DNA of 64,000 bases from Gammaproteobacteria bacterium. Its GTDB lineage: Bacteria; Pseudomonadota; Gammaproteobacteria; Pseudomonadales; Pseudohongiellaceae. The stretch lies in assembly GCA_009844085.1 (NCBI GenBank), contig VYCF01000007.1, forward strand, positions 1,746 to 65,745, written 5' to 3'. Shown piece by piece: positions 49,881 through 64,000 of this stretch; position 1 is the stretch's first letter; each line of letters begins with the position of its first letter. Made by a program: the position numbers and the translations under genes. Below the pieces are notes generated by a model that was given only the letters and a program-made list of their open reading frames with translations, made no database searches and was not told the origin of the DNA.

Positions 49881-50867
49881 TCAGGGCGCGACTTCCATGC
49901 CGTCGCGGCCGACGATGATCGGGCCGTCAAAGTAATCGCTCATGCCCTGGATGAAAGCCGCTTCCGCGGCATCGGTCGGTGCAATCGAAGGGAACAGGTG
50001 GGTGAGCGCCAGCTTTTTCACGCCGGCTTCCTGGGCCATCCGCGCCAGTGCGAGCGTTTCGGCGTGGTATTCCATGCCTTCCTCGATCATTTCGAGTTGC
50101 CGCGTATTGCCCGCGGCTCTAGCCAGCGCTAACGCCGGACTGAACATGGCGGCGTTTTCTGCCTCGCTGACGAGCAGATCGGCGCCTTCGGCGCCGGCAG
50201 CGTAGTCCGGGCAGACCCGCGTGTCGCCCGAGATGACTACGATCTGGTCCAGATACTCGAAGCGATAACCTACGGCGGGCTCGATGGGTTCGTGGCAGAC
50301 CGGAAACATCGTTACCGTCAGGCCGTCTTCATCGAGCACGACCCCGGGTTCGTGCTCGGTCACCGTGGGATTCATCACCGCTTCGCTGAATTTCTCGCCG
50401 TGGTGGGTGATTCGATATTCGAGATCGAGCCGGTAGGTGGAGGCGATTCCAGCCACGATTTCAACCGCGCCTGGCGGCCCATGCACGGGAATGGAACGAT
50501 CGACGCCGGCAACGCCGAAATTGAGCAATATCTCGCCGAGCCCGATGAAGTGGTCGGAATGGTAATGTGTGTAGAAAATGGCGTTGAGATCGAAAATGCC
50601 GGCCTGATCGAGCGTAACGACGCAATTGCGGCCGGTATCGACGAGGAACACGCGGTCTCCCGCGATAACCGCAGTGCAGGCAGTGCCTCGCTGCGGATTC
50701 GGAATCGGCACGCCGGTGCCAAGCAAAATCACGGAAAGGCCTGCTTCCGGGTCCAGGCTGCGCGCCTGCGGCCGCCCCTGGGCGACGGCGATTCCCATCG
50801 ACACGACCAGGACGATTGCGACGAATGCCAGGACGGTTTTTCTCCTCACTCCAGGTTCTCCAGTCAT
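49881..50867 (-). CDS. Secreted MBL-fold metallo-hydrolase
   Basis: ATG 50865-50867 preceded by GGAGG. Signal peptide. HYHSDH zinc motif, plus downstream His/Asp ligands. Confidence 0.8.
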   Translation of the reverse strand: MTGEPGVRRKTVLAFVAIVLVVSMGIAVAQGRPQARSLDPEAGLSVILLGTGVPIPNPQRGTACTAVIAGDRVFLVDTGRNCVVTLDQAGIFDLNAIFYTHYHSDHFIGLGEILLNFGVAGVDRSIPVHGPPGAVEIVAGIASTYRLDLEYRITHHGEKFSEAVMNPTVTEHEPGVVLDEDGLTVTMFPVCHEPIEPAVGYRFEYLDQIVVISGDTRVCPDYAAGAEGADLLVSEAENAAMFSPALALARAAGNTRQLEMIEEGMEYHAETLALARMAQEAGVKKLALTHLFPSIAPTDAAEAAFIQGMSDYFDGPIIVGRDGMEVAP

Positions 50868-50880
50868 GGGGCCTCCACGC

Positions 50881-52353
50881 TCAACTGAGCCGCAAGGCGC
50901 CATCATCGATCGGGGATTCCTCGATCAGTTTGCGGTCCAGCAGGTAGTCCTGGGTGTTGCGCCAGGGAGCCTGGATCTTCTGTTTCGGGAACAGGTGCAT
51001 GGCGCGCTGCATGTAGCCGGGATTGAAGTCGTCGATCCAGTCGAGTTCGGGCAGGTCCGATTCTTCCTCGCGCAACACGGGTTCGCATTGCCTGGCGCCC
51101 CTGGCGTCCATGGTATTGAGCAACTTGCAGAACCAGCGTGAATTCAGGTCGGCGCGCAAGGTCCAGGAGGCGTTGACGTAGCCGAAGGTGTAAGCCAAAT
51201 TCGGCACGCCCGACAGCATCATGCCGTGGTAATTGAACGAGCGCGTCGGCTCGATCTTCTCGCCGTCGCGGTAGAGGCTGACGCCGCCGAACATCTGCAA
51301 GTTCAGGCCGGTGGCGGTGACGAGTATGTCGGCATCAACGGTTTCGCCGTCTCGCATCCTCACGCCCGTTTCGGTGATGCTTTCGATCCGGCCGGTGACG
51401 ACATCGGCCTTGCCTTCCCGGATCGCCAGGAACAGGTCGTTGTCGGGCACCAGGCACAGGCGCTGGGTCCAGGGTTCGTAATTCGGCGTGAAATGTTTCT
51501 CCACGTCATAATCTTCGCCGAGCACCTTGCGTACGCGCTTGATCAGGTAGTCCCTGATCTTCTCGGGCTTCTCCCGCGAGCGCCGGTACACCATGTCCTG
51601 CAGGCGCACGAAGCGCCAGCGATTGATCTTGCCGGCCCAGCGCGCAGGCAGCAGCGCATTGAGCAGGGCCGCGATGCGGTCCTTGCCGGGACGGGAAATG
51701 ATGTAGCTCGGCGAGCGCTGGATCATGGTCACCTTCGCGGCCTTTTGCACCAGTGCCGGAATGAGCGTAACCGCGGTGGCGCCGCTGCCGATGACCGCCA
51801 TGCGCTTGCCCGAATAATCCAGCTCTTCCGGCCAATGTTGCGGATGAACGATCGAACCGCCGAATTGCTCAAGGCCGGGAAGATCGGGCGTATAGCCTTT
51901 TTCGTAGTCGTAATAGCCGCAGCACATGAACAGGAAGCGCGCCCTGATTTCAGACTCGCGGTCCTCGCCGTCAAGCACCGATGCGGTCCAGACGGCGGAT
52001 TCGCTGTCCCAGGCAGCCGAGGTCACTCGGTGTCCGAATCGGATACGATCGCGAACGCCATATTCGTCGACCGTTTCCTGTAAGTAGTCGCGAATGGCGT
52101 CAGCGTCGGAAATCACTTTCGGATTGGTCCAGGGCTTGAAACTGAACCCGAAGGTGTACATGTCGCTGTCGGAGCGAATTCCCGGAAAGCGGAACAGATC
52201 CCAGGTGCCGCCGATCTCGTCCCGGGCTTCGAGAATGGCGTAACTCTTGCCAGGGCATTCGAGCTCAAGATGGCAAGCGGCGCTGATGCCGGAAATCCCG
52301 GCGCCGACAATCAGGACTTCAAGCAGGGAGGAGTCAGGTGCAGCAGCGTTCAT
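50881..52353 (-). CDS. Flavin-containing / Baeyer-Villiger-type monooxygenase
   Basis: FAD fold VLIVGAGISGISAA, GGTW, the FxGxxxHxxxW-type motif FGGSIVHPQHWP, and the NADP fold VIGSGATAV. Confidence 0.85.
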   Translation of the reverse strand: MNAAAPDSSLLEVLIVGAGISGISAACHLELECPGKSYAILEARDEIGGTWDLFRFPGIRSDSDMYTFGFSFKPWTNPKVISDADAIRDYLQETVDEYGVRDRIRFGHRVTSAAWDSESAVWTASVLDGEDRESEIRARFLFMCCGYYDYEKGYTPDLPGLEQFGGSIVHPQHWPEELDYSGKRMAVIGSGATAVTLIPALVQKAAKVTMIQRSPSYIISRPGKDRIAALLNALLPARWAGKINRWRFVRLQDMVYRRSREKPEKIRDYLIKRVRKVLGEDYDVEKHFTPNYEPWTQRLCLVPDNDLFLAIREGKADVVTGRIESITETGVRMRDGETVDADILVTATGLNLQMFGGVSLYRDGEKIEPTRSFNYHGMMLSGVPNLAYTFGYVNASWTLRADLNSRWFCKLLNTMDARGARQCEPVLREEESDLPELDWIDDFNPGYMQRAMHLFPKQKIQAPWRNTQDYLLDRKLIEESPIDDGALRLS

Positions 52354-53528: not shown

Positions 53529-54620
53529 ATGGCCCGATCTTTCGACCTAAGTCGTCCGTACAACGAATTGCCGGACCTGCCGCCCGCCGCGGAAACCGAA
53601 ACGAAGGCAATTCTCAAGAGTTGCATTGCGGCGCGCGCGGCGCTGGCGGAGCTCCGGGCGTCCGGGAAACTCATCCCGAACCAGGCCATGTTGATCAACT
53701 CGATCCCGCTGCTTGAAGCCCAGGCGAGTTCCGAGATCGAAAACATCGTCACGACTGCGGATCGACTGTTCCGCCATGCCAACGATGCGACGGGCCGGGC
53801 GGACCCCGCCACCAAAGAGGCGCTGCGCTATCGCACCGCCCTCAACCGCGGCTTCGAGATGCTGAAAAGGAGGCCGGTTGCGACTGCCATGGCTGTCGAG
53901 GTGTGCAGAACGATCAAGGGTGTGGATCTGGATATTCGCAAAGTGCCGGGCACGGCCTTGCTCAATGATGCAACCAACAAACTGATTTACACGCCGCCCG
54001 TCGGTGAGGACGTGATTCGAATCAAATTGGCCAATTGGGAGCGCTATATTCACGAGGCCGAGAAAATCGACCCCTTGATCCGGCTCGCGGTCATGCACTA
54101 TCAATTCGAGGCGATCCACCCGTTCGTGGATGGAAACGGTCGAACCGGGCGGGTGTTGAACCTGCTTTTCCTGGTCGACAAGGGGCTGCTTGATATTCCC
54201 GTCCTCTACCTAAGTCGATACATCATCGGGAACAAGGCGCTCTACTATCGGCATCTTCTCGCGGTGACGACCGAACAGGATTGGGAAACGTGGATTCTGT
54301 TCATGCTAGAGGCCGTCAAGACAACAGCCGAATGGACCACGGCGAAGATTCAGGCAATCCGCGAGCTTCTGGACGAGACAGCCTCGGAGATTCGGAGGAA
54401 ACTGCCGAAAATCTATTCCCGTGAACTGGTGGAACTGATCTTCGTGAATCCCTATTGCCGGGTAAACGATGTGGTCAAGGCCGGCATCGGGCGGCGTCAA
54501 ACGGCCGCTGTCTATCTGAATGCCCTGGCGGCCGAGGACATTCTGGAGAAAGTAAAGGCGGGACGCGAAAACCTTTACATCAACCCGCCGCTGTTGGCGC
54601 TCTTGTCAGAGCGCACCTGA
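53529..54620 (+). CDS. Fic-family protein (class II, N-terminal inhibitory helix, C-terminal wHTH-like domain)
   Basis: Fic active-site motif HPFVDGNGRTGR. The inhibitory motif [ST]xxxE[GN] is present as SSEIEN upstream. Length is 363 aa. Confidence 0.9.
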   Translation: MARSFDLSRPYNELPDLPPAAETETKAILKSCIAARAALAELRASGKLIPNQAMLINSIPLLEAQASSEIENIVTTADRLFRHANDATGRADPATKEALRYRTALNRGFEMLKRRPVATAMAVEVCRTIKGVDLDIRKVPGTALLNDATNKLIYTPPVGEDVIRIKLANWERYIHEAEKIDPLIRLAVMHYQFEAIHPFVDGNGRTGRVLNLLFLVDKGLLDIPVLYLSRYIIGNKALYYRHLLAVTTEQDWETWILFMLEAVKTTAEWTTAKIQAIRELLDETASEIRRKLPKIYSRELVELIFVNPYCRVNDVVKAGIGRRQTAAVYLNALAAEDILEKVKAGRENLYINPPLLALLSERT

Positions 54621-54728: not shown

Positions 54729-57700
54729 ATGATCGCAGGATCTCGTCGTCTTCCAGTTAGGCACCTCTCCATTCGTGTGCCGTGGCACGACGCGGGCTGG
54801 GCGGGAAGCGTCTGCGATAAGCCGTCGGCCAATACGTCATGTCGGGTATTGCCGAGAATCGCTGAGAGCAAGGACGATGCCGCGGAAGAGTGCGTCAAGA
54901 GTCGCTCCTTTGCAGATCTGCCACCTAGTGACCTCCCGCCATGCTTAGCCGAGCGTGCGAGCTTCATGGCGCCATTTCCGATTACGCTCCGCAAGACGCA
55001 TCCTTACACTAAACGCAACCCGGAATCTCACGGACACTTCCTCCCCACACGCTACACAATGCGCCCGTACACTGCCGCCTGTGTACCCTTTCGTTGGATG
55101 CTGATCGAGGAAAGCGCGGAGTTGGTGAATTTATACGACTTGGGTTACCAGCCAGATCGCGAACCTGATCTTGGGTTCGGAACTGACTGGATTCAAGATC
55201 GTTCAAACCAACTGGTAATGCTCGATACTTTTTTTGGGGCGGTTCGCCCTGAGGAATCGCTCTGTTTCTTCTACGCTAAGGACACGCCCCTGTCGGCATC
55301 GGCTAGGCGGGTGATTGTCGGTGTGGGGCTAGTTCTAACAGTTGATGCCCCTGTCGAATATCAATATTCGATAGAAAATCCTCCGCATCGCAGCGTTCTA
55401 TGGGAACGTAACGTCGAGCACTCCATCCGACCTGGCTTCAAGGAGGGATTTCTGTTTCCATATCGAGAATTGATCGAGATCGCGAATGAGCAGGGACTCG
55501 ACCCACAACAGTTCCTGGCGTTCGCCCCGGACGAAGCGTTTTGGAGCTTTTCCCACGGCTCGGAACACGTCTCGCACGACGAAGCCATCGCATCAGTGCT
55601 GAGTTGCTTGAGGGCACTGGAGCGAATACAGGATGTGCATTCCGGGCCGTGGGGTCGGGCAATGGACTGGCTGGATAGGCAACTCAATCGTTTGTGGCGC
55701 ATGCGTGGCCCCTTTCCGGGATTCGGTTCAGCCCTTGCGGCGTTTCTTGGCGATGGCGGCAATCTTGTTGCGTATGAAATCGCCGAGGAGAGCGCGAAGA
55801 GCAGTTCCGACGGAAACATAGATCCATGGCCAGCGTTCGAACGGATCATACAAGCCCCAGGGACCGCTTCAGATTCGGTCAAGGAACAGATCGGCGAAGG
55901 GTTCGCCCGAGCATGGAGCAGCATGACGGCGCAACGAAAAGAGTTGCTCAGATTGCTCAGCCGGTTCTCGCTGACATCCGATCAGGCGAAACGATTCTTT
56001 AACCGCGATGGCCGACCCGTCAGTCTCGATGATGCCTCGCTGATTGAGAATCCATACCTACTGTACGAACTCGACCGGATGTCGCTAGATTCCATTTCCG
56101 TCATGAACATTGATCGCGGAATGCTGCCTGGCAACGCTGTGCTGAAGGCGCATCCTCTGCCTGAATCCTCGCGGCTCACCGACAAAGTCGACCCGCGCCG
56201 TGTGCGTGCGCTTGTCGTCGCGGCACTTGAGCAAGGCGCTGAACAGGGCCACACGCTGCTGCCTCGCGCTCTGCTGTCAACCTTCATCGACAGTATGCCG
56301 CTAGAGTCAGATTGCCCAATAGGGCCCGTAGTGCTTGCCGGAGTGAGTAACTCACTCGAAGGGGTCGTCGCGACAGCGAAAATGGCGAAAGACACAGTTG
56401 GTTTTCAGCTGCGTCGTTTTGTTGATACGGGCGAAATGATACGTCGCACCGTGAAAAAACGTGTCGGTCCAAAGAGCCAACGCCATCACGGTGGTAACGA
56501 TTTCGAGTCCGCGGTCAATGATTCTCTTGGCGACCTCCCTGAGGATAGCGAAGATGCGGAGATCGAAATTAAAGCGCGTGCCGAAAAGGCCGCGGCGCTC
56601 GAAGAAATATACGCATCAAGGCTATCTGTGCTGGTCGGTGCCGCCGGAACCGGGAAGACAACACTGCTCAAGATGCTCTGTGAACTGGAAGAGGTCGAAG
56701 GAGGCGGCATACTGCTATTGGCACCCACGGGTAAGGCTCGCGTCCAACTCGAAACTAGGACAGGCGTCACAGGAGGGCTAACGATTGCCCAGTTCCTGTC
56801 GCGCTACGGCGACCGATACGATACTTCAACTCACCAGTATTTGGTGACCGGCAGCCCGGATCGTTGTCGGGATTACCGAACCGTGATCGTGGACGAGTGC
56901 TCGATGCTCACCGAAGAGCAGCTCGCAGCTCTGCTGGATGCTCTGAGTGGCGTGGATCGTTTGGTCCTTGTTGGCGACCCGCGCCAGCTGCCGCCCATCG
57001 GAAGCGGTCGACCGTTTGTGGACATCGTGCGGGAACTCGAACCAGAGGAAATCGAGCATCGAATTCTGCAGGTCGACCGCGGCTATGCAAAGCTCACCAT
57101 TCCACGTCGGCAACGCGGAGCGACGCGCGCCGACTTGTTGCTCGCGGGCTGGTTCGGGGGTATCCAGGATCCTGCGGCAGACGAAATCTGGAACCGCCTC
57201 GAAAACGAAGAAATCAACGAAATCAGTTTCGAGTCTTGGAGCGACTGGGAGGATCTTCGAACGAAACTTCTTGAGTTGATCGTCAGGGAACTTGACCTTG
57301 CCAGCTTGGACGACGAAGTGGGCTTTGAATGCAGTCTCGGAGCAACCACGCACAATGGTGGGACCTTCTTCTGGCGTAGCCGCGCTCCGGATGCGCCGAT
57401 AAAGGCCGAGCGCTGGCAAATCCTGTCGCCGGTGCGCGGAGCGGATCATGGAGTGGCAAATCTAAACCGTCTGGTGCAACAGACGTTCCGTAAGTCTTGG
57501 CTATCGAAAGCAATGTCTCATTCGCAATACCGCAAGATTCATCTCCCGGTTGGTCCCCAAGGGATCATTTACGGCGACAAGGTCATCAATCTGAAGAACA
57601 GTGGAGATCGACAAGTATTTCCTAAGCGACTGTCATATGTTGCAAACGGCGATGTTGGCATCGTTGTTGGCAACTACAAGACGAAGAATCAGAAGAAGCT

Positions 57701-58472
57701 GTTTCCGTTCGTGGAAGTCGAGTTTACCTCTCAACCCGGTCATGACTATGACTTCAAGCTTGGGGAGTTCGGTGGCGAAGAAGGAACGCCTCCCTTAGAA
57801 CTTGCTTACGCTCTTACGGTCCACAAGTCGCAGGGCAGCGAGTTTGGGATTACATTCGTCGTGCTGCCCGATCCGTGTTGGCCTCTTTCTCGAGAATTGC
57901 TCTACACCGCATTGACCCGCCAGCAGAACCGGGTCGTCGTTTTGCATCAAGGCGACTTGCGGAATTTGCGCCGCTATGCGAGCGACAAGCACTCGGACAT
58001 CGCCCGCAGGTTGACCAACCTGTTCTCTCCTCCCAATCCAGTCTCGTTCGAGGTCGAAGGTGTCGAGAAATTTCTGGAGGAAGGACTCATCCATCGCACC
58101 AAGCGTGGCGATCTTGTCCGTTCCAAATCCGAGGCAATCATTGCGAACGAACTCCTAGCGCAAGGAGTAGACCGGTACGAATACGAAGCGGCGCTTTCGC
58201 TATCCGACGGGAGAACACGGTATCCAGACTTCACAGTTGTGGATGATGACACGGGAGAGCGTTTCTACTGGGAGCATTTAGGGCTGCTTCATAACCCAGA
58301 ATATGAGGCCCGCTGGAACCGGAAATTGGAAGAATACCGCGCAGCATCTATCCTTCCGCATCAGGAAGGCGGCGGCAAGGCGGGCACATTGATTGTCACC
58401 CGCGACGACGAGCGAGGCGGAATCGACACCCAAGCTATCGCCGACTTGATTCGTGATGTGTTGGTCGGATAA
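54729..58472 (+). CDS. 1247-aa multidomain protein: Cys-rich N-terminal region of unknown function, RecD-like SF1 helicase, C-terminal PD-(D/E)xK-like nuclease domain
   Basis: N-terminus IRVPWHDAGWAGSVCDKPSANTSC. Walker A GAAGTGKTT, Walker B VIVDECSML, LVLVGDPRQLPPIG, ALTVHKSQGSEF, YTALTRQQNRVVVL. The C-terminus reads VRSKSEAIIANELLAQGVDRYEYE...YPDFTVVDD...FYWEHLG. Confidence 0.8.
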   Translation: MIAGSRRLPVRHLSIRVPWHDAGWAGSVCDKPSANTSCRVLPRIAESKDDAAEECVKSRSFADLPPSDLPPCLAERASFMAPFPITLRKTHPYTKRNPESHGHFLPTRYTMRPYTAACVPFRWMLIEESAELVNLYDLGYQPDREPDLGFGTDWIQDRSNQLVMLDTFFGAVRPEESLCFFYAKDTPLSASARRVIVGVGLVLTVDAPVEYQYSIENPPHRSVLWERNVEHSIRPGFKEGFLFPYRELIEIANEQGLDPQQFLAFAPDEAFWSFSHGSEHVSHDEAIASVLSCLRALERIQDVHSGPWGRAMDWLDRQLNRLWRMRGPFPGFGSALAAFLGDGGNLVAYEIAEESAKSSSDGNIDPWPAFERIIQAPGTASDSVKEQIGEGFARAWSSMTAQRKELLRLLSRFSLTSDQAKRFFNRDGRPVSLDDASLIENPYLLYELDRMSLDSISVMNIDRGMLPGNAVLKAHPLPESSRLTDKVDPRRVRALVVAALEQGAEQGHTLLPRALLSTFIDSMPLESDCPIGPVVLAGVSNSLEGVVATAKMAKDTVGFQLRRFVDTGEMIRRTVKKRVGPKSQRHHGGNDFESAVNDSLGDLPEDSEDAEIEIKARAEKAAALEEIYASRLSVLVGAAGTGKTTLLKMLCELEEVEGGGILLLAPTGKARVQLETRTGVTGGLTIAQFLSRYGDRYDTSTHQYLVTGSPDRCRDYRTVIVDECSMLTEEQLAALLDALSGVDRLVLVGDPRQLPPIGSGRPFVDIVRELEPEEIEHRILQVDRGYAKLTIPRRQRGATRADLLLAGWFGGIQDPAADEIWNRLENEEINEISFESWSDWEDLRTKLLELIVRELDLASLDDEVGFECSLGATTHNGGTFFWRSRAPDAPIKAERWQILSPVRGADHGVANLNRLVQQTFRKSWLSKAMSHSQYRKIHLPVGPQGIIYGDKVINLKNSGDRQVFPKRLSYVANGDVGIVVGNYKTKNQKKLFPFVEVEFTSQPGHDYDFKLGEFGGEEGTPPLELAYALTVHKSQGSEFGITFVVLPDPCWPLSRELLYTALTRQQNRVVVLHQGDLRNLRRYASDKHSDIARRLTNLFSPPNPVSFEVEGVEKFLEEGLIHRTKRGDLVRSKSEAIIANELLAQGVDRYEYEAALSLSDGRTRYPDFTVVDDDTGERFYWEHLGLLHNPEYEARWNRKLEEYRAASILPHQEGGGKAGTLIVTRDDERGGIDTQAIADLIRDVLVG

Positions 58473-58523: not shown

Positions 58524-61500
58524 TCAACCGGTGTTTTCGGCTTCGATTACCGCCCGCAAATCGGCAACATGAGTTTCGGTCAAGTACAATGTTACCGATT
58601 CCCCGGCGAGCGTGATGTCCAAGTCGTTTCCGTCCAGAGCGAGAAACCTGCCCTTTACTTCGTCCTTAGAGTTGTTGGCGTGTTTGAACATGGCCGCGTG
58701 ATTGGGGCACAGCGCAAGATAGTTCTGGTGGTGATGTCTCTCCAAGTCCGGGAAAAACTCCACCGCTTCAAAGTAGTAGTTCCCGTCATCGAGTTGAAAA
58801 GGCAGGCTGTCCCGGCACGCCTGACAGATCGTAACTTGATCGGTGTTGGTGTAGAGACTCCGAAGATAAGGTTTGGTCTTCTCCTCCTTGATCTGATCGC
58901 GGTTTTTTGAAATGGAACGTTGACGCATTTCGGTTTCGCGTTTGGGCGCTTGTTTAGCTTCCGCCCGAACCTTATTGGTTCTTCGATCCAGATCAGCGGA
59001 TTCGCGAGTGGGCAGTTCCACAGGCGATTGGAATTGTTCCAAGACTTTTCGTCTAGTTTCTGCCGACAAGGCTGCGAACTGTCGAACATCGTCAAGAGCG
59101 CCTAGGTCGCTAATTCCGAGTTCGGCAGCGATTTCCCGAGTCCTGCGAAGTTTTTCGGCACGCTCTTCAGTTTCAATTCCGAAGTCTATGGCCTTGAGCC
59201 AGTCCCAACCCGGATCGAAAGCGAATCCATCCGGCAGCAGGTCCTTTTGCGCATCTGGGGGGCGAACGAATTCGCCGGCATTTTGGGGGATCCAGGCGGA
59301 ATTTTTCAACTGGTGTACGAGTCGAGAATTAGCAGTATGCTCGTTGTTAGCCAAATTCTTCTTGAAAGTGGCTTTCAAGATGCTTTCGTTGAGATGCAGG
59401 TTGCTGAGCGTATTCCAGACAAGGCGGGAGAGCGCCATGCTCGGGGTTTCAAACATAACGTCGAGGTCGGGAATTACGAAGTCTTCGTCGATCCCGTAAT
59501 CTGTAAATCTCTCTCCCGGTGCGTTATGCAGGTGCTCCCTGTTTGGATTCGCATCGCAATTTACGGTGGCGATTTCGAGCCGGTCGGCCACACCGCAAGA
59601 CTGCGCGAATGGGATAAGCTGCTTCAGAGGGTCGAATTTCTGGTAGTTGGGAGACAACGCAATTCGCTCTGTTTCAATTTCCGGGTGGCCGTAATAGGAA
59701 TCTAATCCAGTTTTGAGATATGGACTGTCGAGATAAAGCAAACCAGGGCAATGCCAACCGCTGTCGGCCCCTTGGAATATGAAATACTTCTCAAAAAGTT
59801 TGATTGCACTTCTGTCTGTATTCGCCAAAGAAGTAAACCGATTCAAGTCGGATTCATGGATTGTCCACGGATGTTCTTGGTCGGAGTTGGCATATCGCTG
59901 CTTGAGGATGGCCTCAATTTGCTCGAATTCTCCGATTTCCTTGACCCCGATGCCTTCTAGGAAAGCTCTGGAATGTTTTTGCTCTGTATCCGTGCCCCCG
60001 CCAGCATAAGTATTTTTAGCAACTCGGGGGTGGATAGGGTCTTCGTGAATTTCCGGTGTAGGAAAATAGCATTCATGGCCTGTTCCGAATTCTCCGTCCG
60101 AGCGCCTGACGATACTGAGATTGTTGAAACGGTATAAATGGTCTCCCAGTTGCCGATGGAGGAAAGCATACAATTTTCGGTGCCACTCCTCTGGTTTCCG
60201 CCTCATCCAGTCGAGGAACGATTGGTCTGGCCCCTGCTTCCAAGTGTGGGTCAGATGACAAAAACCATTCGTCGTGGAGCAACGGTCCTTAAGTGTTTCC
60301 ATAAATTGCTCGACACCCCATTGCCCAACATCGAGATCATGTAGAAAGCGATCCACCCGGCTGTTCCGCTGCGTTGCGGCGACAGCCCAGTCCGGATCTC
60401 CATCGCAGTTATCGACAAGGAAGCGGAGATCATCGCGATCAAGCAAATCCTTCAGGCCAGCTTCTGCTTGTAGCAGTCGGCTGGCTGGCGCGTGGCCAAT
60501 GGCATGCGTTGGGGTAAGCGGTCGCTCGTTCATCGCTTTGACGATGGCAGTGCGTATGGGCTCGTAATTTTCAGGGACATCGTCATTGCTGTTTGGCAGC
60601 ACGGCAAGAAAATCCCGATCAAGCAGGCCGAAGTCACGGACAACTGTGAGTGACTGCGCCGCAAGTCGAGCGATCTGCTCGAAAAGAGGCTCGTTTGCGT
60701 CTGTCTTCTTGATGCTGGAGCGACTGAGTTCAGGGACGAAGGGTGCGTGGATATGGAAACGCATGTTCGAGGTTTCTTTCGCGGCCGTAAAATAGACTGC
60801 GACGCATCCTCGCTCTGCTGGGATGATGCGGAACCGGTTGGTCACGGAGCCGTGTTCAGCATGTCGCTGTTTTTCGGGCCTCGGTTCAAGCTCAAAGGCG
60901 ATGGCAACGTTCTGCCTTTCGAGATCTTCCACCTGTTCGCGGAAACTGAGGAAATGGGAAGTTTCGGTCGATCCACCGTCTATCTCGCGGAGAACTTCCA
61001 AGTGTTGATCGGAATTCGCAACTCTGAGCAAACGAACTTTTTTGTTTCCTTCAACCCGCCAATTGATCTCTTCGATGTTGGAAAGGAACAGCAGGGTTCT
61101 GTCGGAAATTTCCTCAAGACAGTCCCGTACTTCTGAAAAGGCTTGGGTCTTCGGCTTCTTTTCAGAATCGAACGGAAATTCGAATCGAGTGCAGCCGTGG
61201 AGCTTTGGGCAGGAGTGCAGCGCCGACGGGAGAACCATCTCGGAAATTTTGAATGAGTAACTCGGGGACCAGATATGCGGGGTCTCCGTGTATGCAAACA
61301 CAGCCTTGAATCCGATGCCGAAACGGCCGATCTGCTCGTCGTACTCTGCCTTGGTGCCTTCTCCGATATCGGTAATGGCTCGGATATCGGCTTCGTCGAA
61401 CTCGCGGCCGTTATGCTCGAACACAAGCTTATTTTCGGAAAGGCGAAAAGTGGTCTCCGAAGCACCGGTGTCCTCCGCATTCTGGAGCAGTTCGTATATG

Positions 61501-61613
61501 AAATGTGCGGAATCGGGATAGAGGTCCTCGACGATCCTTCGGATGCCGGCATGCTTCTTCAATACTCGGGCAAGATCCTCGCGATCTCGGCGAATGCGTT
61601 CGATAACACTCAC
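58524..61613 (-). CDS. 1029-aa GHKL (sacsin/MORC-like) ATPase with a C-terminal Cys/His HNH-like module
   Basis: GTG start overlapping the upstream TGA (GTGA at 61610-61613). Bergerat N-box ELLQNAEDT, then DIGEGTK, then GRFGIGFKAVF. The C-terminus reads CQAC...HHHQNYLALCPNH. Confidence 0.75.
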   Translation of the reverse strand: MSVIERIRRDREDLARVLKKHAGIRRIVEDLYPDSAHFIYELLQNAEDTGASETTFRLSENKLVFEHNGREFDEADIRAITDIGEGTKAEYDEQIGRFGIGFKAVFAYTETPHIWSPSYSFKISEMVLPSALHSCPKLHGCTRFEFPFDSEKKPKTQAFSEVRDCLEEISDRTLLFLSNIEEINWRVEGNKKVRLLRVANSDQHLEVLREIDGGSTETSHFLSFREQVEDLERQNVAIAFELEPRPEKQRHAEHGSVTNRFRIIPAERGCVAVYFTAAKETSNMRFHIHAPFVPELSRSSIKKTDANEPLFEQIARLAAQSLTVVRDFGLLDRDFLAVLPNSNDDVPENYEPIRTAIVKAMNERPLTPTHAIGHAPASRLLQAEAGLKDLLDRDDLRFLVDNCDGDPDWAVAATQRNSRVDRFLHDLDVGQWGVEQFMETLKDRCSTTNGFCHLTHTWKQGPDQSFLDWMRRKPEEWHRKLYAFLHRQLGDHLYRFNNLSIVRRSDGEFGTGHECYFPTPEIHEDPIHPRVAKNTYAGGGTDTEQKHSRAFLEGIGVKEIGEFEQIEAILKQRYANSDQEHPWTIHESDLNRFTSLANTDRSAIKLFEKYFIFQGADSGWHCPGLLYLDSPYLKTGLDSYYGHPEIETERIALSPNYQKFDPLKQLIPFAQSCGVADRLEIATVNCDANPNREHLHNAPGERFTDYGIDEDFVIPDLDVMFETPSMALSRLVWNTLSNLHLNESILKATFKKNLANNEHTANSRLVHQLKNSAWIPQNAGEFVRPPDAQKDLLPDGFAFDPGWDWLKAIDFGIETEERAEKLRRTREIAAELGISDLGALDDVRQFAALSAETRRKVLEQFQSPVELPTRESADLDRRTNKVRAEAKQAPKRETEMRQRSISKNRDQIKEEKTKPYLRSLYTNTDQVTICQACRDSLPFQLDDGNYYFEAVEFFPDLERHHHQNYLALCPNHAAMFKHANNSKDEVKGRFLALDGNDLDITLAGESVTLYLTETHVADLRAVIEAENTG

Positions 61614-64000
61614 GTCACGTCGTCCCGTGTGATGCGCAGCATGCCTTTGACAACCATGGTGGCGTGAATATCTGCGCTTTCTGACAACCTCTCCAACTCC
61701 GCAACCCGGCTCTCGTATTCGTAGTTGGCGCGCACCAATTCGCTTTGCCTCATACGACGAATCTTATAGTTGATCGCACCGCTGATTTGGTCTTCCAGCA
61801 ATTTGCATCGCGCTCGGTGACTGATTTCCAAACTATGCCGTCTATGTTCAAGGGCTTCCCGGTTGTTCGCAATATGATCCGCGCACGCGGAGCGCCATTC
61901 TCTGTGATGGTGGGTGTCGAGTTGATTCATCTCATCCTCGTCCGGCTGATTTCCGGCAGATACGTCCGCAGCGGTTTCCAGCAGGGTCAGCAAAACACTG
62001 TTCAAATTCGGATTTGGAGTGATGGCCACGAGAATGTCGTCCGACCGAACGCCGACCTTGCGCCAATGGTAGACAGCGAATGGGTATTCGCCTGGGGGGA
62101 CCGCTTCACTTTCGATACTTAGGCTGGCACGCACCACTCCTGAGGATTCCAAGAACCGCGCTGCCTGACGGACTAATGGGTGCAGAACATGCATGTAGAT
62201 GACTTCGGGTTTGTCAGCTGCGGTTTTCTGGTCAAACGTGACTTGCAACATGGGGTCTGCGCCTTTGAGCCACTTTTCCCACTGTCGGGAGACTGGGTCT
62301 ATTGGCCGAGGGTAGTCGTGCAAATCTTCAAGTAGACTCAATCGAATTTCCTTGCTGAGTCGAAGCGTCTTGAGGGCTCCATCACCTAGAAAAAAACTGC
62401 CGTCCATCTTCTTGGACAAGCTCGAAAGATAAGAGACGATACAACTTTGCAATGCATTCGGGGATAGCCAGAAGTTCTCGGCTTCCTCGATTTCCTCACG
62501 CCAGGATTGGTTGGGAACCGAAAGGCCAAACAGTTCCGAATGTTTCTCTTCAAGCGCGATTTCTTCCTGAACTTGGCGTATTTTATTGTCGCCGAGTTGC
62601 TGGAGACGTTCTTTGCGCTGCTCTGAGGTAAGAGTGAAGCTGTCGGCGATGTTATGTATCTCCCGGGTGATTTCTCCGAGAATCTCCTCGCTGCCGCCAA
62701 CGGCGTGATGAAACACGCCGATGCGTAAGAGGCAGCGCTGGTAGATTTCCGCGTCCACCGTGCCGGGTGTCACCAAATTAATGATTGCAACGCTGTCGCT
62801 TTGCTGACCGTAGCGGTCGATGCGGCCGATCCGCTGTTCGATGCGCATAGGGTTCCATGGCAGATCGTAGTTGATCAGCAGATCGCAGAACTGGAAGTCA
62901 AGTCCTTCGCAGCCGACTTCGGAGGACAGCAGAACATCAATCGCCTCCGGGTCATCCTTCGGAAGAGCGAAACGCCGACGCAAAGTTGAACGGTGGTCGT
63001 CAGGAACGCCGCCATGCACAAGGCCGTAGCGGATTCCGGCATCGGAAATGTATCGCTCAACATAAGCAAGTGTGTGGCGGAAGGTGCTGAAGACCAACGC
63101 TTTGTTGTTTTCCATTTGATCCTTGTCCCGCAGAACCTTAATAAATTCCAGCACCTTTGGGTCGAAAGGGTCGAGAGCCTTTGCCTGATCCAGCAATGCC
63201 TCAATATCCGCCTCGATCTCATTGAGGAACGCGGCATCTACGGGGGTCTCTCCATCAGGCCCATCCATGGCCTCAAGGCCGTCAAGTTTCACCGCCAGCA
63301 TGTCGCGCAAGAGGGGGGCGAGGCCGAAAATGCAACTTGCCGCCTGGCGACGTAGTGTGGACATCATGAATTTGACATTCTGCTCGCCGTGGGCATGCGC
63401 CAGAATACGGCTTACCACTTCAAGCAAGCCGTCATGCAATTGGCGCTGGCTCGGAGTGAACTCAGTCGTCAGCGTTTCCGGCTGACGTGTGGTGAAATCT
63501 CCGATGTCCCGGCGGCGCGTACGGTTGATCATCGGGCTGAAGGTATAAAGTTCCTCCAATGTACGGATTATGTGTATGCGGTTGGCATCGTCTATGTTTT
63601 GCTCGGCCATGCGATCATAGACATCTTGAAACGCTGGCGATTCTCGAAGAAACAAGCGCCCCCACTCGGTTCGCGCCGCATCGTCCAAGCATGCGCGGGC
63701 TTCGATGGACCAGCGAACCCCGCCTGTGCGGCAATGGCCGACGGCTGTGTTGATGAATCGGTTGGGCGCAGCCATCTGCTCGAAACTCGGTCGGTCGATG
63801 ATGAGGTCCGGTCGCAGAACATTTAGCAGAGTGAATAGATCTTGGCTTCCAAGTTGCACCGGCGTGGCGGTCAGGAAGACCGCGGCTTGGGAGTTGTCGC
63901 AAAAATACCGCACCGCTTGGTGGAGATAGGTGTCCGCGTTGCGTATATGGTGTGCCTCGTCGACAATCACCAGATCGAACCTTGGAGGTGGGTCGAGAGC
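61610..64000 (-). CDS. SNF2-family (SF2) helicase with a roughly 350-aa C-terminal extension; the N-terminus lies beyond the window
   Basis: The frame stays open to position 64000 (...LDPPPRFDLVIVDEAHHIRN, the DEAH box). FLTATPVQ, helicase-C motifs (LLSSEVGCEGLDFQ, DLPWNPMRIEQRIGRIDRYGQ). Confidence 0.85.
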   Translation of the reverse strand, partial: ALDPPPRFDLVIVDEAHHIRNADTYLHQAVRYFCDNSQAAVFLTATPVQLGSQDLFTLLNVLRPDLIIDRPSFEQMAAPNRFINTAVGHCRTGGVRWSIEARACLDDAARTEWGRLFLRESPAFQDVYDRMAEQNIDDANRIHIIRTLEELYTFSPMINRTRRRDIGDFTTRQPETLTTEFTPSQRQLHDGLLEVVSRILAHAHGEQNVKFMMSTLRRQAASCIFGLAPLLRDMLAVKLDGLEAMDGPDGETPVDAAFLNEIEADIEALLDQAKALDPFDPKVLEFIKVLRDKDQMENNKALVFSTFRHTLAYVERYISDAGIRYGLVHGGVPDDHRSTLRRRFALPKDDPEAIDVLLSSEVGCEGLDFQFCDLLINYDLPWNPMRIEQRIGRIDRYGQQSDSVAIINLVTPGTVDAEIYQRCLLRIGVFHHAVGGSEEILGEITREIHNIADSFTLTSEQRKERLQQLGDNKIRQVQEEIALEEKHSELFGLSVPNQSWREEIEEAENFWLSPNALQSCIVSYLSSLSKKMDGSFFLGDGALKTLRLSKEIRLSLLEDLHDYPRPIDPVSRQWEKWLKGADPMLQVTFDQKTAADKPEVIYMHVLHPLVRQAARFLESSGVVRASLSIESEAVPPGEYPFAVYHWRKVGVRSDDILVAITPNPNLNSVLLTLLETAADVSAGNQPDEDEMNQLDTHHHREWRSACADHIANNREALEHRRHSLEISHRARCKLLEDQISGAINYKIRRMRQSELVRANYEYESRVAELERLSESADIHATMVVKGMLRITRDDVT

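What the first reader, a model, noticed from the sequence alone, without database searches (positions are those of the whole stretch)
58524..64000. Translationally coupled SNF2 helicase plus GHKL-ATPase/HNH-like giant protein: candidate uncharacterised defence module
Two large minus-strand genes are fused at the translational level: the TGA of the SNF2 gene overlaps the GTG of the next gene (GTGA, 61610-61613).

- **Upstream protein:** it has the full SNF2 motif set (DEAH, LTATP, DLPWNP...[11 protein letters not shown]) and a long C-terminal extension with no motif I recognise.
- **Downstream 1029-aa protein:** it opens with a Bergerat-fold ATPase of the sacsin/MORC type (ELLQNAEDT, DIGEG, GRFGIGFKAVF). 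About 800 aa of unassigned sequence follow. It ends in a CxxC...HHH.N...CPNH cluster that looks like an HNH or zinc-ribbon nuclease.

ATPase plus SF2 helicase plus nuclease is the logic of restriction-like or abortive conflict systems. Comparative genomics has noted GHKL/MORC-like ATPases linked to helicases in R-M-like contexts. This pair does not fit the gene content of the named systems I can recall (Zorya, Druantia, DISARM, Hachiman, Gabija, Septu, Lamassu, Wadjet, BREX). No methyltransferase is visible, but the window ends inside the SNF2 gene, so partners may lie beyond it.
Basis: partly seen in the sequence, partly recalled or inferred. Interest (0 to 1): 0.85.

Follow-up and report, generated by a model that had tools for sequence, protein, structure and literature searches.

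The report
Conserved two-gene HEPN-SNF2 / sacsin-ATPase defence candidate
The two overlapping genes are real and form a widespread, self-contained, horizontally mobile gene pair found near anti-phage genes, whose halves resemble the known Tiamat and DISARM defence systems but whose combination is unnamed and untested.

Summary
Minus-strand ORFs 58524-61613 (1029 aa) and 61610->64000 overlap by GTGA and carry all the quoted motifs.

Recovering the source contig completes the picture. The upstream protein is 1193 aa: an N-terminal Swt1-type HEPN RNase domain, then a DrmD-like SNF2 core. The operon stops there, and no methyltransferase is present.

The 1029-aa protein has three parts:
- a sacsin-clade GHKL ATPase;
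- about 650 aa shared with Tiamat TmtA;
- a C-terminal Zn module homologous to the McrA HNH domain.

All four McrA catalytic or metal histidines are replaced (V951, E952, A973, K977). A canonical HNH nuclease is therefore unlikely, and HEPN is the probable effector.

Relatives occur in 539 species genomes across many phyla. In 75 of 78 informative loci the SNF2 gene lies directly upstream. Only these two genes are conserved in +/-10 kb, and a 4-nt start/stop overlap is kept in 52 of 72 pairs. Flanks vary and repeatedly hold defence genes; here they hold PDC-S68 and SoFic.

Verdict: a genuine, untested two-gene candidate defence module, best filed as a new variant of GHKL + SF2-helicase conflict systems. 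It is neither canonical Tiamat nor DISARM. Mechanism is inferred only.

The parts
58524..61613 (-). Gene B: 1029-aa protein made of a sacsin-clade GHKL ATPase, a TmtA-like middle region and an HNH-fold Zn module (GTG start, TGA stop).
   Evidence: ORF. Pfam SACS 5.3e-19. NCBIfam P_loop_sacsin 96 bits against a cut-off of 50. PADLOC TmtA PDLC03972 4.1e-54. AF2 model with mean pLDDT 83.6. 1513 representatives at 50% identity reach E<=1e-30.
60624..61613 (-). GHKL (Bergerat-fold) ATPase plus transducer-like region, about aa 1-330. The N-box ELLQNAEDT lies at 61467-61493.
   Evidence: Foldseek hits: Hsp90 1.5e-8, sacsin SR1 5v44 3.9e-7 (20% identity), GyrB, MutL, MORC2. E41, N45, D48, H67, G69, G96, G99, G101 and K103 are invariant in 66 of 66 homologs.
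58917..60623 (-). Middle region, about aa 331-899: mixed alpha/beta, no Pfam family. The part up to about aa 785 is shared with Tiamat TmtA profiles.
   Evidence: PADLOC TmtA alignment covers aa 3-785 against profile positions 6-801 of 1302. Pfam finds nothing at E<=10. PDB sequence search finds nothing significant. Confidently folded in AF2.
58527..58916 (-). C-terminal module, aa 900-1029: an McrA-like HNH (beta-beta-alpha) fold with a C930/C933/C969/H972 zinc site (58698-58826) but no canonical catalytic histidines. A beta-hairpin and a helix follow, carrying the invariant H1015 and D1018.
   Evidence: Profile against PDB: 6ghc_A McrA, 4.9e-8. PADLOC mREase_IV 7.8e-5. AF2 domain model pLDDT 91.9. 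Foldseek top hits 6ghc_A/B with probability 1.00. Residue mapping and conservation.
61610..64000 (-). Gene A, 3' two thirds (aa 398-1193 of 1193): DrmD-like SNF2 translocase. The window cuts the gene, so the N-terminal HEPN_Swt1 domain and helicase motif I lie outside.
   Evidence: Translation. Pfam SNF2-rel_dom and Helicase_C. Full gene recovered at L001:6423-10004 with HEPN_Swt1 2.3e-16. PADLOC DrmD PDLC02623 5.3e-117. NCBIfam DISARM_DrmD 318 bits, below the 610 cut-off. RapA is the closest solved structure, 2e-33.
61613..62650 (-). C-terminal extension of the SNF2 protein, about 346 aa. It has no Pfam family but aligns with the C-terminal part of DrmD profiles.
   Evidence: Pfam finds nothing. 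The PADLOC DrmD alignment runs to profile position 969 of 1040 and the NCBIfam DrmD alignment to 952 of 1021. Conserved positions are scattered through it.
61610..61613 (-). GTGA: stop of gene A overlapping the start of gene B, implying translational coupling.
   Evidence: Sequence. A 4-nt overlap is found in 52 of 72 homologous pairs.
54729..58472 (+). Neighbour: 1247-aa PDC-S68 candidate defence protein (RecD-like SF1 helicase), convergent with gene B across a 51-bp gap.
   Evidence: PADLOC PDC-S68 1509.6 bits over the full length. A homolog lies next to the pair in 10 of 80 loci.
53529..54620 (+). Neighbour: SoFic (Fic AMPylase defence protein). It marks the far edge of the low-GC island.
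   Evidence: NCBIfam ProtAdlyltaseSoFic 586.5 bits against a cut-off of 550. PADLOC SoFic 3.5e-117. GC profile.

Best explanation
This is a self-contained two-gene candidate anti-phage/anti-plasmid module made as a stoichiometric complex.

**Gene A.** It encodes a DrmD-like SNF2 dsDNA translocase. Its N-terminus carries a swappable module, and in most members that module is a Swt1-type HEPN RNase with an intact RNxxxH motif.

**Gene B.** It encodes a sacsin-clade GHKL ATPase related to Tiamat TmtA. The PD-(D/E)XK nuclease end of TmtA is replaced by an McrA-derived HNH-fold zinc module that has lost the catalytic histidines.

**Proposed working (inferred, not shown).**
1. The GHKL protein dimerises on ATP binding and acts as a clamp or sensor on DNA. 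Its degenerate HNH/Zn module and middle region serve as the DNA-binding surface.
2. The SNF2 motor translocates on the bound DNA.
3. Recognition of foreign DNA or a foreign DNA structure brings two HEPN domains together. They cleave RNA, arresting the infected cell or the invader's expression.

There is no methyltransferase, so self/non-self discrimination is not by cognate methylation.

**Shown versus inferred.** Shown are the domain identities, the conservation of catalytic residues in the GHKL, SNF2 and HEPN domains, the loss of the HNH catalytic residues, the obligate pairing and coupling, and the mobility and defence-island context. Inferred are the defence function, complex formation, the order of events and the target.
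For: **Domains.**
- Gene B: SACS/P_loop_sacsin above cut-offs. Its fold matches sacsin SR1, Hsp90, GyrB, MutL and MORC2. TmtA profile 4e-54 over aa 3-785.
- Gene A: HEPN_Swt1 + SNF2-rel_dom + Helicase_C, and DrmD-like at 5e-117.

**Catalytic residues.**
- The GHKL residues E41, N45 and the G-boxes are invariant in 66 of 66 homologs.
- The SNF2 motifs are >=95% conserved.
- The HEPN motif R-N-[RK]-W-A-H is present in 57-58 of 62.

**HNH-fold module.**
- McrA is the best hit by profile (4.9e-8) and by structure (probability 1.00).
- McrA H228, H229, H252 and H256, each needed for activity (PMC6182155), align to V951, E952, A973 and K977. The Zn ligands and the structural Asn are kept.

**Pairing.**
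- SNF2 lies directly upstream in 75 of 78 informative loci.
- These are the only two gene families conserved in +/-10 kb.
- A 4-nt overlap occurs in 52 of 72 pairs.
- The pairing also holds on a Rhizobium plasmid and on two IMG/VR contigs.

**Mobility and context.**
- 539 species genomes across many bacterial phyla and one archaeon carry a relative.
- Flanks share no synteny.
- GC is 0.505-0.55 in the pair against 0.60-0.615 in the flanks.
- Neighbours include SoFic and PDC-S68, a PDC-S01-like gene and Cap4-nuclease/SMC genes. Others are ResIII, HNH, AAA_15/21, BrxL and transposases.
- N-terminal module swapping on the SNF2 protein is typical of conflict systems.

**Precedent.**
- GHKL + SWI2/SNF2 + nuclease operons were predicted to be R-M-like systems (PMC2292703).
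- A GHKL-nuclease fusion, VcSduA, is a validated defence protein (PMC12137116).
Against: - No experiment exists for this pair. I found no paper on it.
- Immediate neighbours are heterogeneous and many are housekeeping genes. The island context is suggestive but was not quantified.
- About 10 of 72 SNF2 partners lack HEPN, and some have no N-terminal module at all. HEPN therefore cannot be the universal effector.
- In this very locus the HEPN Arg is replaced by His (HNRWAH), unique among 62 sequences. This copy may be impaired.
- E949, E952, H1015 and D1018 are invariant or nearly so in the HNH-fold module. They could form a non-canonical active site, so DNA cleavage is not excluded.
- Complex formation and GHKL dimerisation were not modelled.
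Confidence: 0.6

Rival explanations
1. It is simply Tiamat, a known single-gene system. Gene B is a TmtA subtype that defends on its own, and the SNF2 gene is an accessory or an unrelated neighbour.
For: Nine PADLOC TmtA profiles hit gene B, the best at 4.1e-54 over 785 residues. The GHKL clade is shared: plasmid relatives annotated as DUF3883 proteins match the first ~320-385 aa.
Against: - The best TmtA profile is covered only from position 6 to 801 of 1302.
- The PD-(D/E)XK end attributed to Tiamat (bioRxiv 10.1101/2024.10.26.620412) is absent. An HNH-fold module replaces it.
- The SNF2 partner is present in 75 of 78 loci, with conserved 4-nt start/stop overlap. This argues for an obligate two-protein unit.
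Confidence: 0.12
2. One reading: a restriction-like DNA-degrading system. The C-terminal HNH of gene B would be the active DNase, driven by the GHKL ATPase and the SNF2 motor.
For: The HNH fold is homologous to the McrA nuclease domain. There is a PADLOC mREase_IV hit. E949, H1015 and D1018 are invariant and E952 nearly so. MORC + SNF2 + HNH operons were predicted to be R-M systems.
Against: All four histidines required for McrA activity are replaced at the aligned positions. The HHH run is not conserved. No methyltransferase is present for self-protection. A conserved HEPN RNase is available as effector.
Confidence: 0.13
3. It is a housekeeping or stress function, not defence: a RapA-like remodeller of transcription or repair complexes working with an Hsp90/sacsin-like chaperone.
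For: RapA is the closest solved relative of the SNF2 core (2e-33; NCBIfam RapA 199 bits). Sacsin and Hsp90 are chaperones and are the top structural matches of gene B. Many neighbours are metabolic genes.
Against: - The RapA score is far below its cut-off (199 against 576).
- Distribution is sporadic: 539 of about 185,579 species genomes, scattered over phyla.
- Insertion sites vary and GC is low.
- A toxin-type HEPN domain and swappable N-terminal modules are present.
- The pair is repeatedly adjacent to defence genes.
Confidence: 0.07
4. It is a remnant of a DISARM system: an orphan DrmD next to an unrelated gene.
For: DrmD is the best PADLOC and NCBIfam match of the helicase, including its C-terminal extension.
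Against: The score of 318 bits is below the equivalog cut-off of 610. No DrmA, DrmB, DrmC or methylase lies within +/-10 kb here or as a conserved neighbour in 80 loci. The HEPN fusion and the coupled GHKL partner are not DISARM features.
Confidence: 0.02

Closest known systems
Tiamat (TmtA), a single-gene anti-phage system
   Same: Both have an N-terminal sacsin-type GHKL ATPase and several hundred residues of downstream region. PADLOC TmtA reaches 4e-54 over aa 3-785. Both are large proteins of 1000 aa or more found in defence islands.
   Different: Tiamat is described as a single gene with a PD-(D/E)XK nuclease. Plasmid relatives sharing the GHKL clade are annotated DUF3883. Here the C-terminus is an McrA-like HNH fold without catalytic histidines, and the protein is coupled to a HEPN-SNF2 partner in 75 of 78 loci.
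DISARM class 1 helicase DrmD
   Same: Both are SNF2 translocases sharing the DrmD-type C-terminal extension. DrmD is the best HMM match.
   Different: The score is below the equivalog cut-off (318 against 610). DrmA, DrmB, DrmC and DrmMI are absent. The N-terminal HEPN fusion is not a DISARM feature.
Prokaryotic MORC/paraMORC + SF2 helicase R-M-like operons (Iyer, Abhiman, Aravind 2008)
   Same: Both link a GHKL + S5-type ATPase to a SWI2/SNF2 helicase and to HNH-type modules. Both are laterally mobile and are predicted to act in DNA looping or clamping.
   Different: The GHKL here belongs to the sacsin clade, which that paper does not mention. Methylases are absent, the HNH is degenerate, and an RNase (HEPN) is the conserved nuclease.
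EcoKMcrA (type IV restriction enzyme), HNH domain
   Same: It is the closest homolog of the C-terminal module by sequence profile (4.9e-8) and by structure. The Zn site and the structural Asn are conserved.
   Different: McrA H228, H229, H252 and H256 are replaced by V, E, A and K/Q. No NEco modified-cytosine reader domain is present.
HEPN-fused helicase/ATPase defence proteins (HEPN-DUF499 of Hma/BREX-related systems; HEPN-SNF2 fusions noted in Anantharaman et al. 2013)
   Same: A Swt1/Abi2-clade HEPN sits at the N-terminus of an NTPase in an R-M-like operon and is proposed as a suicide or back-up RNase effector.
   Different: Those systems carry a methyltransferase and a helicase-REase. This pair has neither, and its partner is a sacsin-type GHKL protein.
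Eukaryotic sacsin
   Same: The GHKL clade is the same: Pfam SACS, and sacsin SR1 5v44 is a top structural match at 20% identity. Both associate functionally with a HEPN domain.
   Different: Sacsin is one giant protein with three SRR repeats, a DnaJ domain and a HEPN of a different family that lacks the RNase motif in human. It has no SNF2 and no HNH fold.

Membership tests
GHKL ATPase, sacsin clade | Family HMM above the curated cut-off. | tested here: met
   Pfam SACS 69.4 bits against 32.8. NCBIfam P_loop_sacsin 96 bits against 50.
GHKL ATPase, sacsin clade | Bergerat-fold catalytic motifs (N-box Glu/Asn, Gly-rich boxes) and the fold itself. | tested here: met
   E41, N45, D48, H67, G69, G96, G99, G101 and K103 are invariant in 66 of 66. 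Foldseek finds sacsin SR1, Hsp90, GyrB, MutL and MORC2.
SNF2 family translocase | SNF2-rel_dom + Helicase_C above cut-offs with helicase motifs I-VI. | tested here: met
   67.4 bits against 24.9 and 71.8 bits against 23.5. GVGKT, DEAH, TATP and [11 protein letters not shown] are >=95% conserved.
Tiamat (TmtA) | Full-length match to a TmtA profile. | tested here: inconclusive
   The best PADLOC TmtA profile scores 4.1e-54 but covers only profile positions 6-801 of 1302 and protein residues 3-785 of 1029. PADLOC's own system-calling thresholds could not be run.
Tiamat (TmtA) | C-terminal PD-(D/E)XK (DUF3883-type) nuclease. | tested here: not met
   Pfam finds nothing in aa 832-1029 at E<=10. The module is an HNH fold. 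Tiamat is described as a PD-(D/E)XK single-gene system.
Tiamat (TmtA) | Functions as a single gene. | tested here: not met
   Genomic proxy only. An SNF2 partner lies directly upstream in 75 of 78 loci, with a 4-nt overlap in 52 of 72 pairs. Functional autonomy cannot be tested here.
DISARM | DrmD equivalog score. | tested here: not met
   NF038317 scores 318 bits against a cut-off of 610, and NF038318 scores 140 against 950.
DISARM | DrmA, DrmB (DUF1998), DrmC (PLD) and a methyltransferase in the same locus. | tested here: not met
   None lies in +/-10 kb of the source contig. No third conserved gene family appears across 80 loci.
HNH (His-Me finger) nuclease | Beta-beta-alpha fold built on a CxxC...CxxC/H structural zinc site, with the structural Asn. 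| tested here: met
   AF2 pLDDT 91.9 with beta 949-952, beta 965-968 and helix 970-978. C930, C933 and C969 are invariant, H972 is H57/C8 and N964 is 57 of 66. McrA is the top hit.
HNH (His-Me finger) nuclease | Nucleophile-activating His at the end of beta1, and metal-ligand His/Asp residues. | tested here: not met
   McrA H228, H229, H252 and H256 align to V951, E952, A973 and K977. Family consensus at those positions is V, E/Q, A/S and variable.
HEPN RNase (Swt1-like) | Family HMM above the cut-off. | tested here: met
   PF18731 scores 60.5 bits against 27.5, over aa 11-123 of the full SNF2 protein. This domain lies outside the window.
HEPN RNase (Swt1-like) | Rx4-6H catalytic motif. | tested here: inconclusive
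   The family has R(58/62)-N-[RK]-W-A-H(57/62). This locus reads H-N-R-W-A-H, with the Arg lost.
MORC/paraMORC R-M-like systems | GHKL + S5 ATPase linked to an SF2 helicase and a nuclease, usually with a DNA methylase. | tested here: inconclusive
   The GHKL-SNF2 linkage is met. A methylase is absent in the core pair and appears only in the L054 variant operon. The GHKL clade is sacsin, not MORC.
Validated anti-phage defence system | Protection against phage or plasmid in a heterologous host. | not testable with these tools
   Requires experiment.

The most novel reading that the evidence does not exclude
The pair is a distinct, still unnamed two-protein immune system. A sacsin-type GHKL clamp uses an inactivated McrA-like HNH domain purely as a DNA sensor. 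It licenses a DNA-translocating SNF2 motor to switch on a fused HEPN RNase. DNA surveillance would thus be coupled to RNA-level abortive defence without any methylation mark. If true, it would also give the first tractable prokaryotic model of a sacsin-clade ATPase working with a HEPN domain, the same domain partnership found in human sacsin.
Probability: 0.3. Interest if true: 0.75.

Novelty: new variant of a known kind. Interest (0 to 1): 0.58.

Why it matters
- **Tiamat has no mechanism yet.** In the papers I could reach it is described only as a single-gene PD-(D/E)XK system.
- **This family is large.** It has about 1500 representatives at 50% identity (E<=1e-30) and occurs in 539 species genomes. 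It keeps the Tiamat-type ATPase but swaps the nuclease for a dead HNH and adds a HEPN-SNF2 partner.
- **It separates roles.** It works as a natural dissection of sensor, motor and effector functions in GHKL-based immunity.
- **Annotation consequence.** Pipelines may be labelling it 'Tiamat' plus 'incomplete DISARM'. Recognising it as one unit would correct such annotations.
- **Link to sacsin.** The sacsin-GHKL/HEPN pairing is a possible handle on the biochemistry of the sacsin ATPase clade.

Tried and rejected
- **Pfam on unassigned regions.** The C-terminal 198 aa, the middle 710 aa and the SNF2 C-terminal 346 aa gave no hits at E<=10.
- **PDB sequence searches.** The middle region and the extra C-tail of the ~1200-aa variants gave nothing significant.
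- **Third conserved gene.** All-versus-all clustering of ORFs in 81 loci found none. Every other large 'cluster' was an alternative-frame ORF inside the two genes.
- **Nearest neighbours.** Scanning 117 of them found no family in more than 4 members.
- **Small upstream gene on the Rhizobium plasmid.** I tested whether this 176-aa gene is a split-off HEPN. There was no similarity and no Pfam hit.
- **Promoter and terminator scans.** Nothing appeared at either operon end.
- **Literature.** Searches for Tiamat/TmtA mechanism, Swt1-HEPN + SNF2 + sacsin, and GHKL + anti-phage found no description of this pair. The original Tiamat paper was not in the library.
- **DISARM remnant.** Rejected.
- **Phage-encoded element.** Rejected: only 6 IMG/VR hits, 2 of them full length.


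Full report
**1. Observation**

The window carries a minus-strand ORF at 58524..61613 (1029 aa, GTG start). A second minus-strand reading frame ends with TGA at 61610-61612 and stays open to the last base of the window. The sequence around 61610 reads ACG-TGA overlapping GTG-AGT, so the stop of the upstream gene and the start of the downstream gene share GTGA.

- DEAH, TATP and [11 protein letters not shown] in the upstream protein.
- ELLQNAEDT, DIGEG and GRFGIGFKAVF in the downstream protein.
- CQAC...HHH..QN...CPNH at the C-terminus of the downstream protein.

The upstream gene is truncated by the window, so helicase motif I is not visible there.

**2. What lies beyond the window**

An exact-sequence look-up of the 1029-aa protein found the source contig. 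It is a Gammaproteobacteria MAG (GCA_009846445.1, VXXQ01000004.1), and +/-10 kb was fetched as L001.

The upstream gene encodes 1193 aa. Pfam finds three domains:
- HEPN_Swt1 at aa 11-123 (60.5 bits, cut-off 27.5).
- SNF2-rel_dom.
- Helicase_C.

Upstream of it lies a divergently transcribed acyl-CoA dehydrogenase gene. Downstream of the 1029-aa gene, convergent with it, lies a 1247-aa PDC-S68 protein (1509 bits), followed by SoFic (NCBIfam 586 bits against a cut-off of 550). No methyltransferase and no DISARM gene lie within 10 kb.

GC is 0.505-0.55 in the pair and up to 0.577 across the adjacent PDC-S68/SoFic stretch, against 0.60-0.615 in the flanking metabolic genes.

**3. The 1029-aa protein (gene B)**

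*N-terminus.*
- Pfam SACS and NCBIfam P_loop_sacsin both pass their cut-offs.
- An AlphaFold2 model built on 67 homologs has mean pLDDT 83.6.
- Foldseek against the PDB returns Hsp90, the human sacsin SR1 domain (5v44, 20% identity), GyrB, MutL, Topo VI-B and MORC2.
- The Bergerat-fold residues E41, N45, D48, H67, G69, G96, G99, G101 and K103 are invariant in 66 homologs spanning 34-68% identity. ATP binding and hydrolysis are therefore under selection.

*Middle region.*
- PADLOC's Tiamat (TmtA) profiles hit the protein. The best scores 4.1e-54 and aligns residues 3-785 to profile positions 6-801 of 1302.
- The GHKL domain and much of the 'unassigned' middle are thus shared with Tiamat.
- The middle region has no Pfam family and no PDB sequence match.

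*C-terminus.* A profile of the last 150 residues from 55 homologs hits one PDB protein significantly: the HNH domain of E. coli McrA (6ghc, E = 4.9e-8).
- PADLOC also gives an mREase_IV hit for aa 925-987.
- A separate AF2 model of aa 900-1029 (pLDDT 91.9) again retrieves McrA as its top two structural matches, with probability 1.00.
- The model shows the beta-beta-alpha core: beta 949-952, beta 965-968 and helix 970-978.

The fold assignment 'HNH' is therefore right, but the active site is not there. According to the EcoKMcrA structure paper (PMC6182155):
- H229 activates the nucleophile.
- H228, H252 and H256 bind the catalytic metal. Each of these four H-to-A variants is inactive.
- N243 is structural, and two CxxC pairs bind the structural zinc.

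In the HMM alignment these residues map as follows:

| McrA residue | Role | This protein |
|---|---|---|
| H228 | metal ligand | V951 |
| H229 | nucleophile activator | E952 |
| N243 | structural | N964 |
| C248 | zinc ligand | C969 |
| C251 | zinc ligand | H972 |
| H252 | metal ligand | A973 |
| H256 | metal ligand | K977 |

Conservation across 66 homologs:
- The zinc ligands are invariant; position 972 is H in 57 and C in 8, the classic behaviour of a structural zinc ligand.
- N964 is kept in 57.
- The 'catalytic' positions are V, E/Q, A/S and variable.

This is an McrA-derived HNH fold that has lost the canonical His-Me chemistry. E949, H1015 and D1018 are invariant, and E952 is kept in 51 of 66. 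A non-canonical site therefore cannot be excluded.

**4. The SNF2 protein (gene A)**

*Family assignment.*
- Its best family match is DISARM DrmD: PADLOC PDLC02623 at 5.3e-117 over residues 236-1149, which includes the C-terminal extension.
- The NCBIfam equivalog score is 318 bits against a cut-off of 610.
- RapA is the closest solved structure.
- Helicase motifs are >=95% conserved in 62 homologs.

*HEPN motif.*
- The motif is R-N-[RK]-W-A-H in the family, with R in 58 of 62 and H in 57 of 62.
- The copy in this MAG reads H-N-R-W-A-H, the only such case.

*Swappable N-terminal module.* Most members carry HEPN, but other arrangements occur:
- DUF2283 + HTH_17 in L036 and L058.
- A weak M78-peptidase match in L041.
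- A CopG-like segment in L081.
- An unknown 180-aa domain in L030 and L074.
- Nothing in L077 and L079.

**5. Is the pair a unit?**

*Distribution.*
- A scan of one genome per species (185,579 species) found relatives of gene B in 539 genomes.
- The best 80 come from Alpha-, Beta- and Gammaproteobacteria, Planctomycetota, Acidobacteriota, Chloroflexota, Verrucomicrobiota, Binatia, Actinomycetota, Bacillota and a Methanoperedens archaeon.

*Linkage.*
- In 75 of the 78 loci with enough upstream DNA, an SNF2 homolog ends right at the start of gene B on the same strand.
- All-versus-all clustering of every ORF of at least 120 aa in +/-10 kb shows these two are the only conserved gene families.
- Insertion sites are not syntenic.
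- The stop/start overlap of 4 nt is kept in 52 of 72 pairs.

*Other collections.*
- The pairing holds on a Rhizobium plasmid, where the pair sits beside Cap4-nuclease and SMC-like (Lamassu-like) genes.
- It also holds on the only two IMG/VR contigs with a near-full-length copy.

*Exceptions.*
- L064 carries a fragmented pseudogene.
- L063 has a second divergent paralog.
- In L054 (Nitrosospira) the sacsin-like gene closes a five-gene operon: HTH-SNF2, Abi_C (a HEPN-type domain, by my own recollection rather than a tool result), an N6/N4 DNA methylase and a ResIII helicase.

*Family size.* An exhaustive HMMER search of 1.84 billion cluster representatives finds 1513 proteins at E<=1e-30. Most of the best 150 are full-length matches of about 1020-1070 aa; a minority are fragments or longer variants of up to about 1250 aa.

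**6. Context**

- Immediate neighbours are heterogeneous, and no family occurs in more than 4 of 117.
- They include ResIII, HNH, AAA_15/AAA_21, BrxL, type III REase, PDC-S01, transposases and integrases, alongside ordinary metabolic genes.
- A PDC-S68 homolog lies within 10 kb of the pair in 10 of 80 loci, usually directly adjacent.

**7. Most likely mechanism**

*Shown.*
- Two enzymatically intact NTPases (GHKL and SNF2).
- A usually intact HEPN RNase.
- A degenerate HNH/Zn module.
- Strict genetic coupling.
- Lateral mobility.
- No methylase.

*From established knowledge of the families.*
- GHKL ATPases dimerise on ATP binding and clamp or reorganise DNA or client proteins.
- SNF2 enzymes translocate on dsDNA.
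- HEPN RNases are active as dimers.

*Inferred.* The two proteins form a complex in which:
1. The GHKL protein senses or clamps invader DNA through its middle region and dead-HNH module.
2. The SNF2 motor translocates on that DNA.
3. HEPN dimerisation triggers RNA cleavage, giving an abortive-infection or growth-arrest outcome.

The members without HEPN, and the R92H change in this copy, show the effector step is not uniform.

**8. Comparison with what is known**

- The general logic (GHKL ATPase + SWI2/SNF2 helicase + HNH-type module in mobile R-M-like operons) was predicted in 2008 for MORC/paraMORC families. Sacsin-type proteins were not mentioned there.
- HEPN fusions to SWI2/SNF2 helicases were noted generically in 2013.
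- A GHKL-nuclease fusion, VcSduA, has been validated as a defence protein.
- Tiamat is a validated single-gene relative whose mechanism I could not find described.
- I found no description of this specific pair.
- It fails defining features of Tiamat (C-terminal PD-(D/E)XK, single gene), of DISARM (equivalog score, DrmABC and a methylase) and of active HNH nucleases (catalytic histidines).

**9. Verdict**

This is a real and statistically robust feature: a conserved, mobile two-gene module that is very probably a conflict or defence system. It is best filed as a new variant of GHKL-ATPase/SF2-helicase defence systems, related to Tiamat on one side and to DrmD-type helicases on the other.

The 'HNH nuclease' should be read as a degenerate HNH-fold zinc module. 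The 'unseen partners' turn out to be a HEPN RNase domain rather than a methyltransferase.

Interest is moderate to good. The module is widespread, untested and mechanistically informative, but it is not outside known categories.

Noticed in passing
window 54729-58472 (+); also L005, L017, L023, L025, L027, L032, L039, L053, L082: A ~1250-aa PDC-S68 candidate defence protein (RecD-like SF1 helicase with long N- and C-terminal regions) lies within 10 kb of the pair in 10 of 80 loci. It is often directly downstream on the same strand, with 64-nt gaps in L025 and L027. This is too frequent for chance. It may be a recurrent co-travelling module or a functional third partner.
   Followed up: partly
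L001:6696-6698 (outside the window; aa 92 of the full SNF2 protein): The HEPN catalytic motif is RN[RK]WAH in 58 of 62 homologs but HNRWAH in this MAG. The Arg is replaced by His, the only such case, so this copy's RNase may be impaired or altered.
   Followed up: partly
L036, L058, L041, L081, L030, L074, L077, L079 (5' ends of the SNF2 genes): The N-terminal module of the SNF2 partner is swappable. Alternatives to HEPN_Swt1 are DUF2283 + HTH_17, a weak M78 (ImmA/IrrE-like) peptidase match, a CopG-like segment, an unknown 180-aa domain, or nothing.
   Followed up: partly
L054:1558-13090 (Nitrosospira sp. Nsp11): A variant five-gene operon reads HTH-SNF2, Abi_C protein, N6/N4 DNA methylase, ResIII helicase, sacsin-like protein. 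The same component types are combined here with a type III-like R-M pair.
   Followed up: partly
L083:1373-12036 (Rhizobium sp. BT03 plasmid pRspBT03e): A distant copy of the pair (about 31% identity) sits directly after Cap4-nuclease, small wHTH and SMC-like genes (Lamassu-like). A 176-aa ORF of unknown family overlaps the SNF2 start by 4 nt.
   Followed up: partly
window 53529-54620 (+): A SoFic (Fic AMPylase) defence gene marks the other end of a ~12.5-kb low-GC island. The island runs from SoFic through PDC-S68 and the pair to the 5' end of the SNF2 gene just beyond the window, between the NMO/FMO genes and an acyl-CoA dehydrogenase gene.
   Followed up: partly
window ~49881-50906 (-) (= L001:20708-21733): An MBL-fold hydrolase gene has precomputed Pfam hits that include Anti-Pycsar_Apyc1 as well as Lactamase_B. 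It lies 2.6 kb from the island. It is probably an ordinary MBL enzyme, but this was not examined.
   Followed up: no
L001:2687-3820 (beyond the window): An AAA_14/DUF4143 ATPase matching PADLOC PDC-S01 (1.1e-60) lies 2.6 kb beyond the SNF2 gene. In L015 two homologs of this gene (22-27% identity), not themselves scanned against PADLOC, flank the pair on both sides.
   Followed up: no
full SNF2 protein aa ~178-225 (L001:6954-7097), conserved even in HEPN-less members: A small conserved beta-rich segment (GDLVxLRS...VxPVxxV...RYxVFxxxxxxTYYESQL) precedes the helicase core. By eye it resembles the Tudor/SH3-like N-terminal domains of RapA. No tool test was made.
   Followed up: no
L080:13073-13594, and P0192, P0204, P0226 (proteins of ~1190-1215 aa): Some family members carry an extra ~170-aa C-terminal tail after the HNH-fold module. 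In L080 the tail ends in a CPKC...CRHC motif. It has no PDB match.
   Followed up: partly
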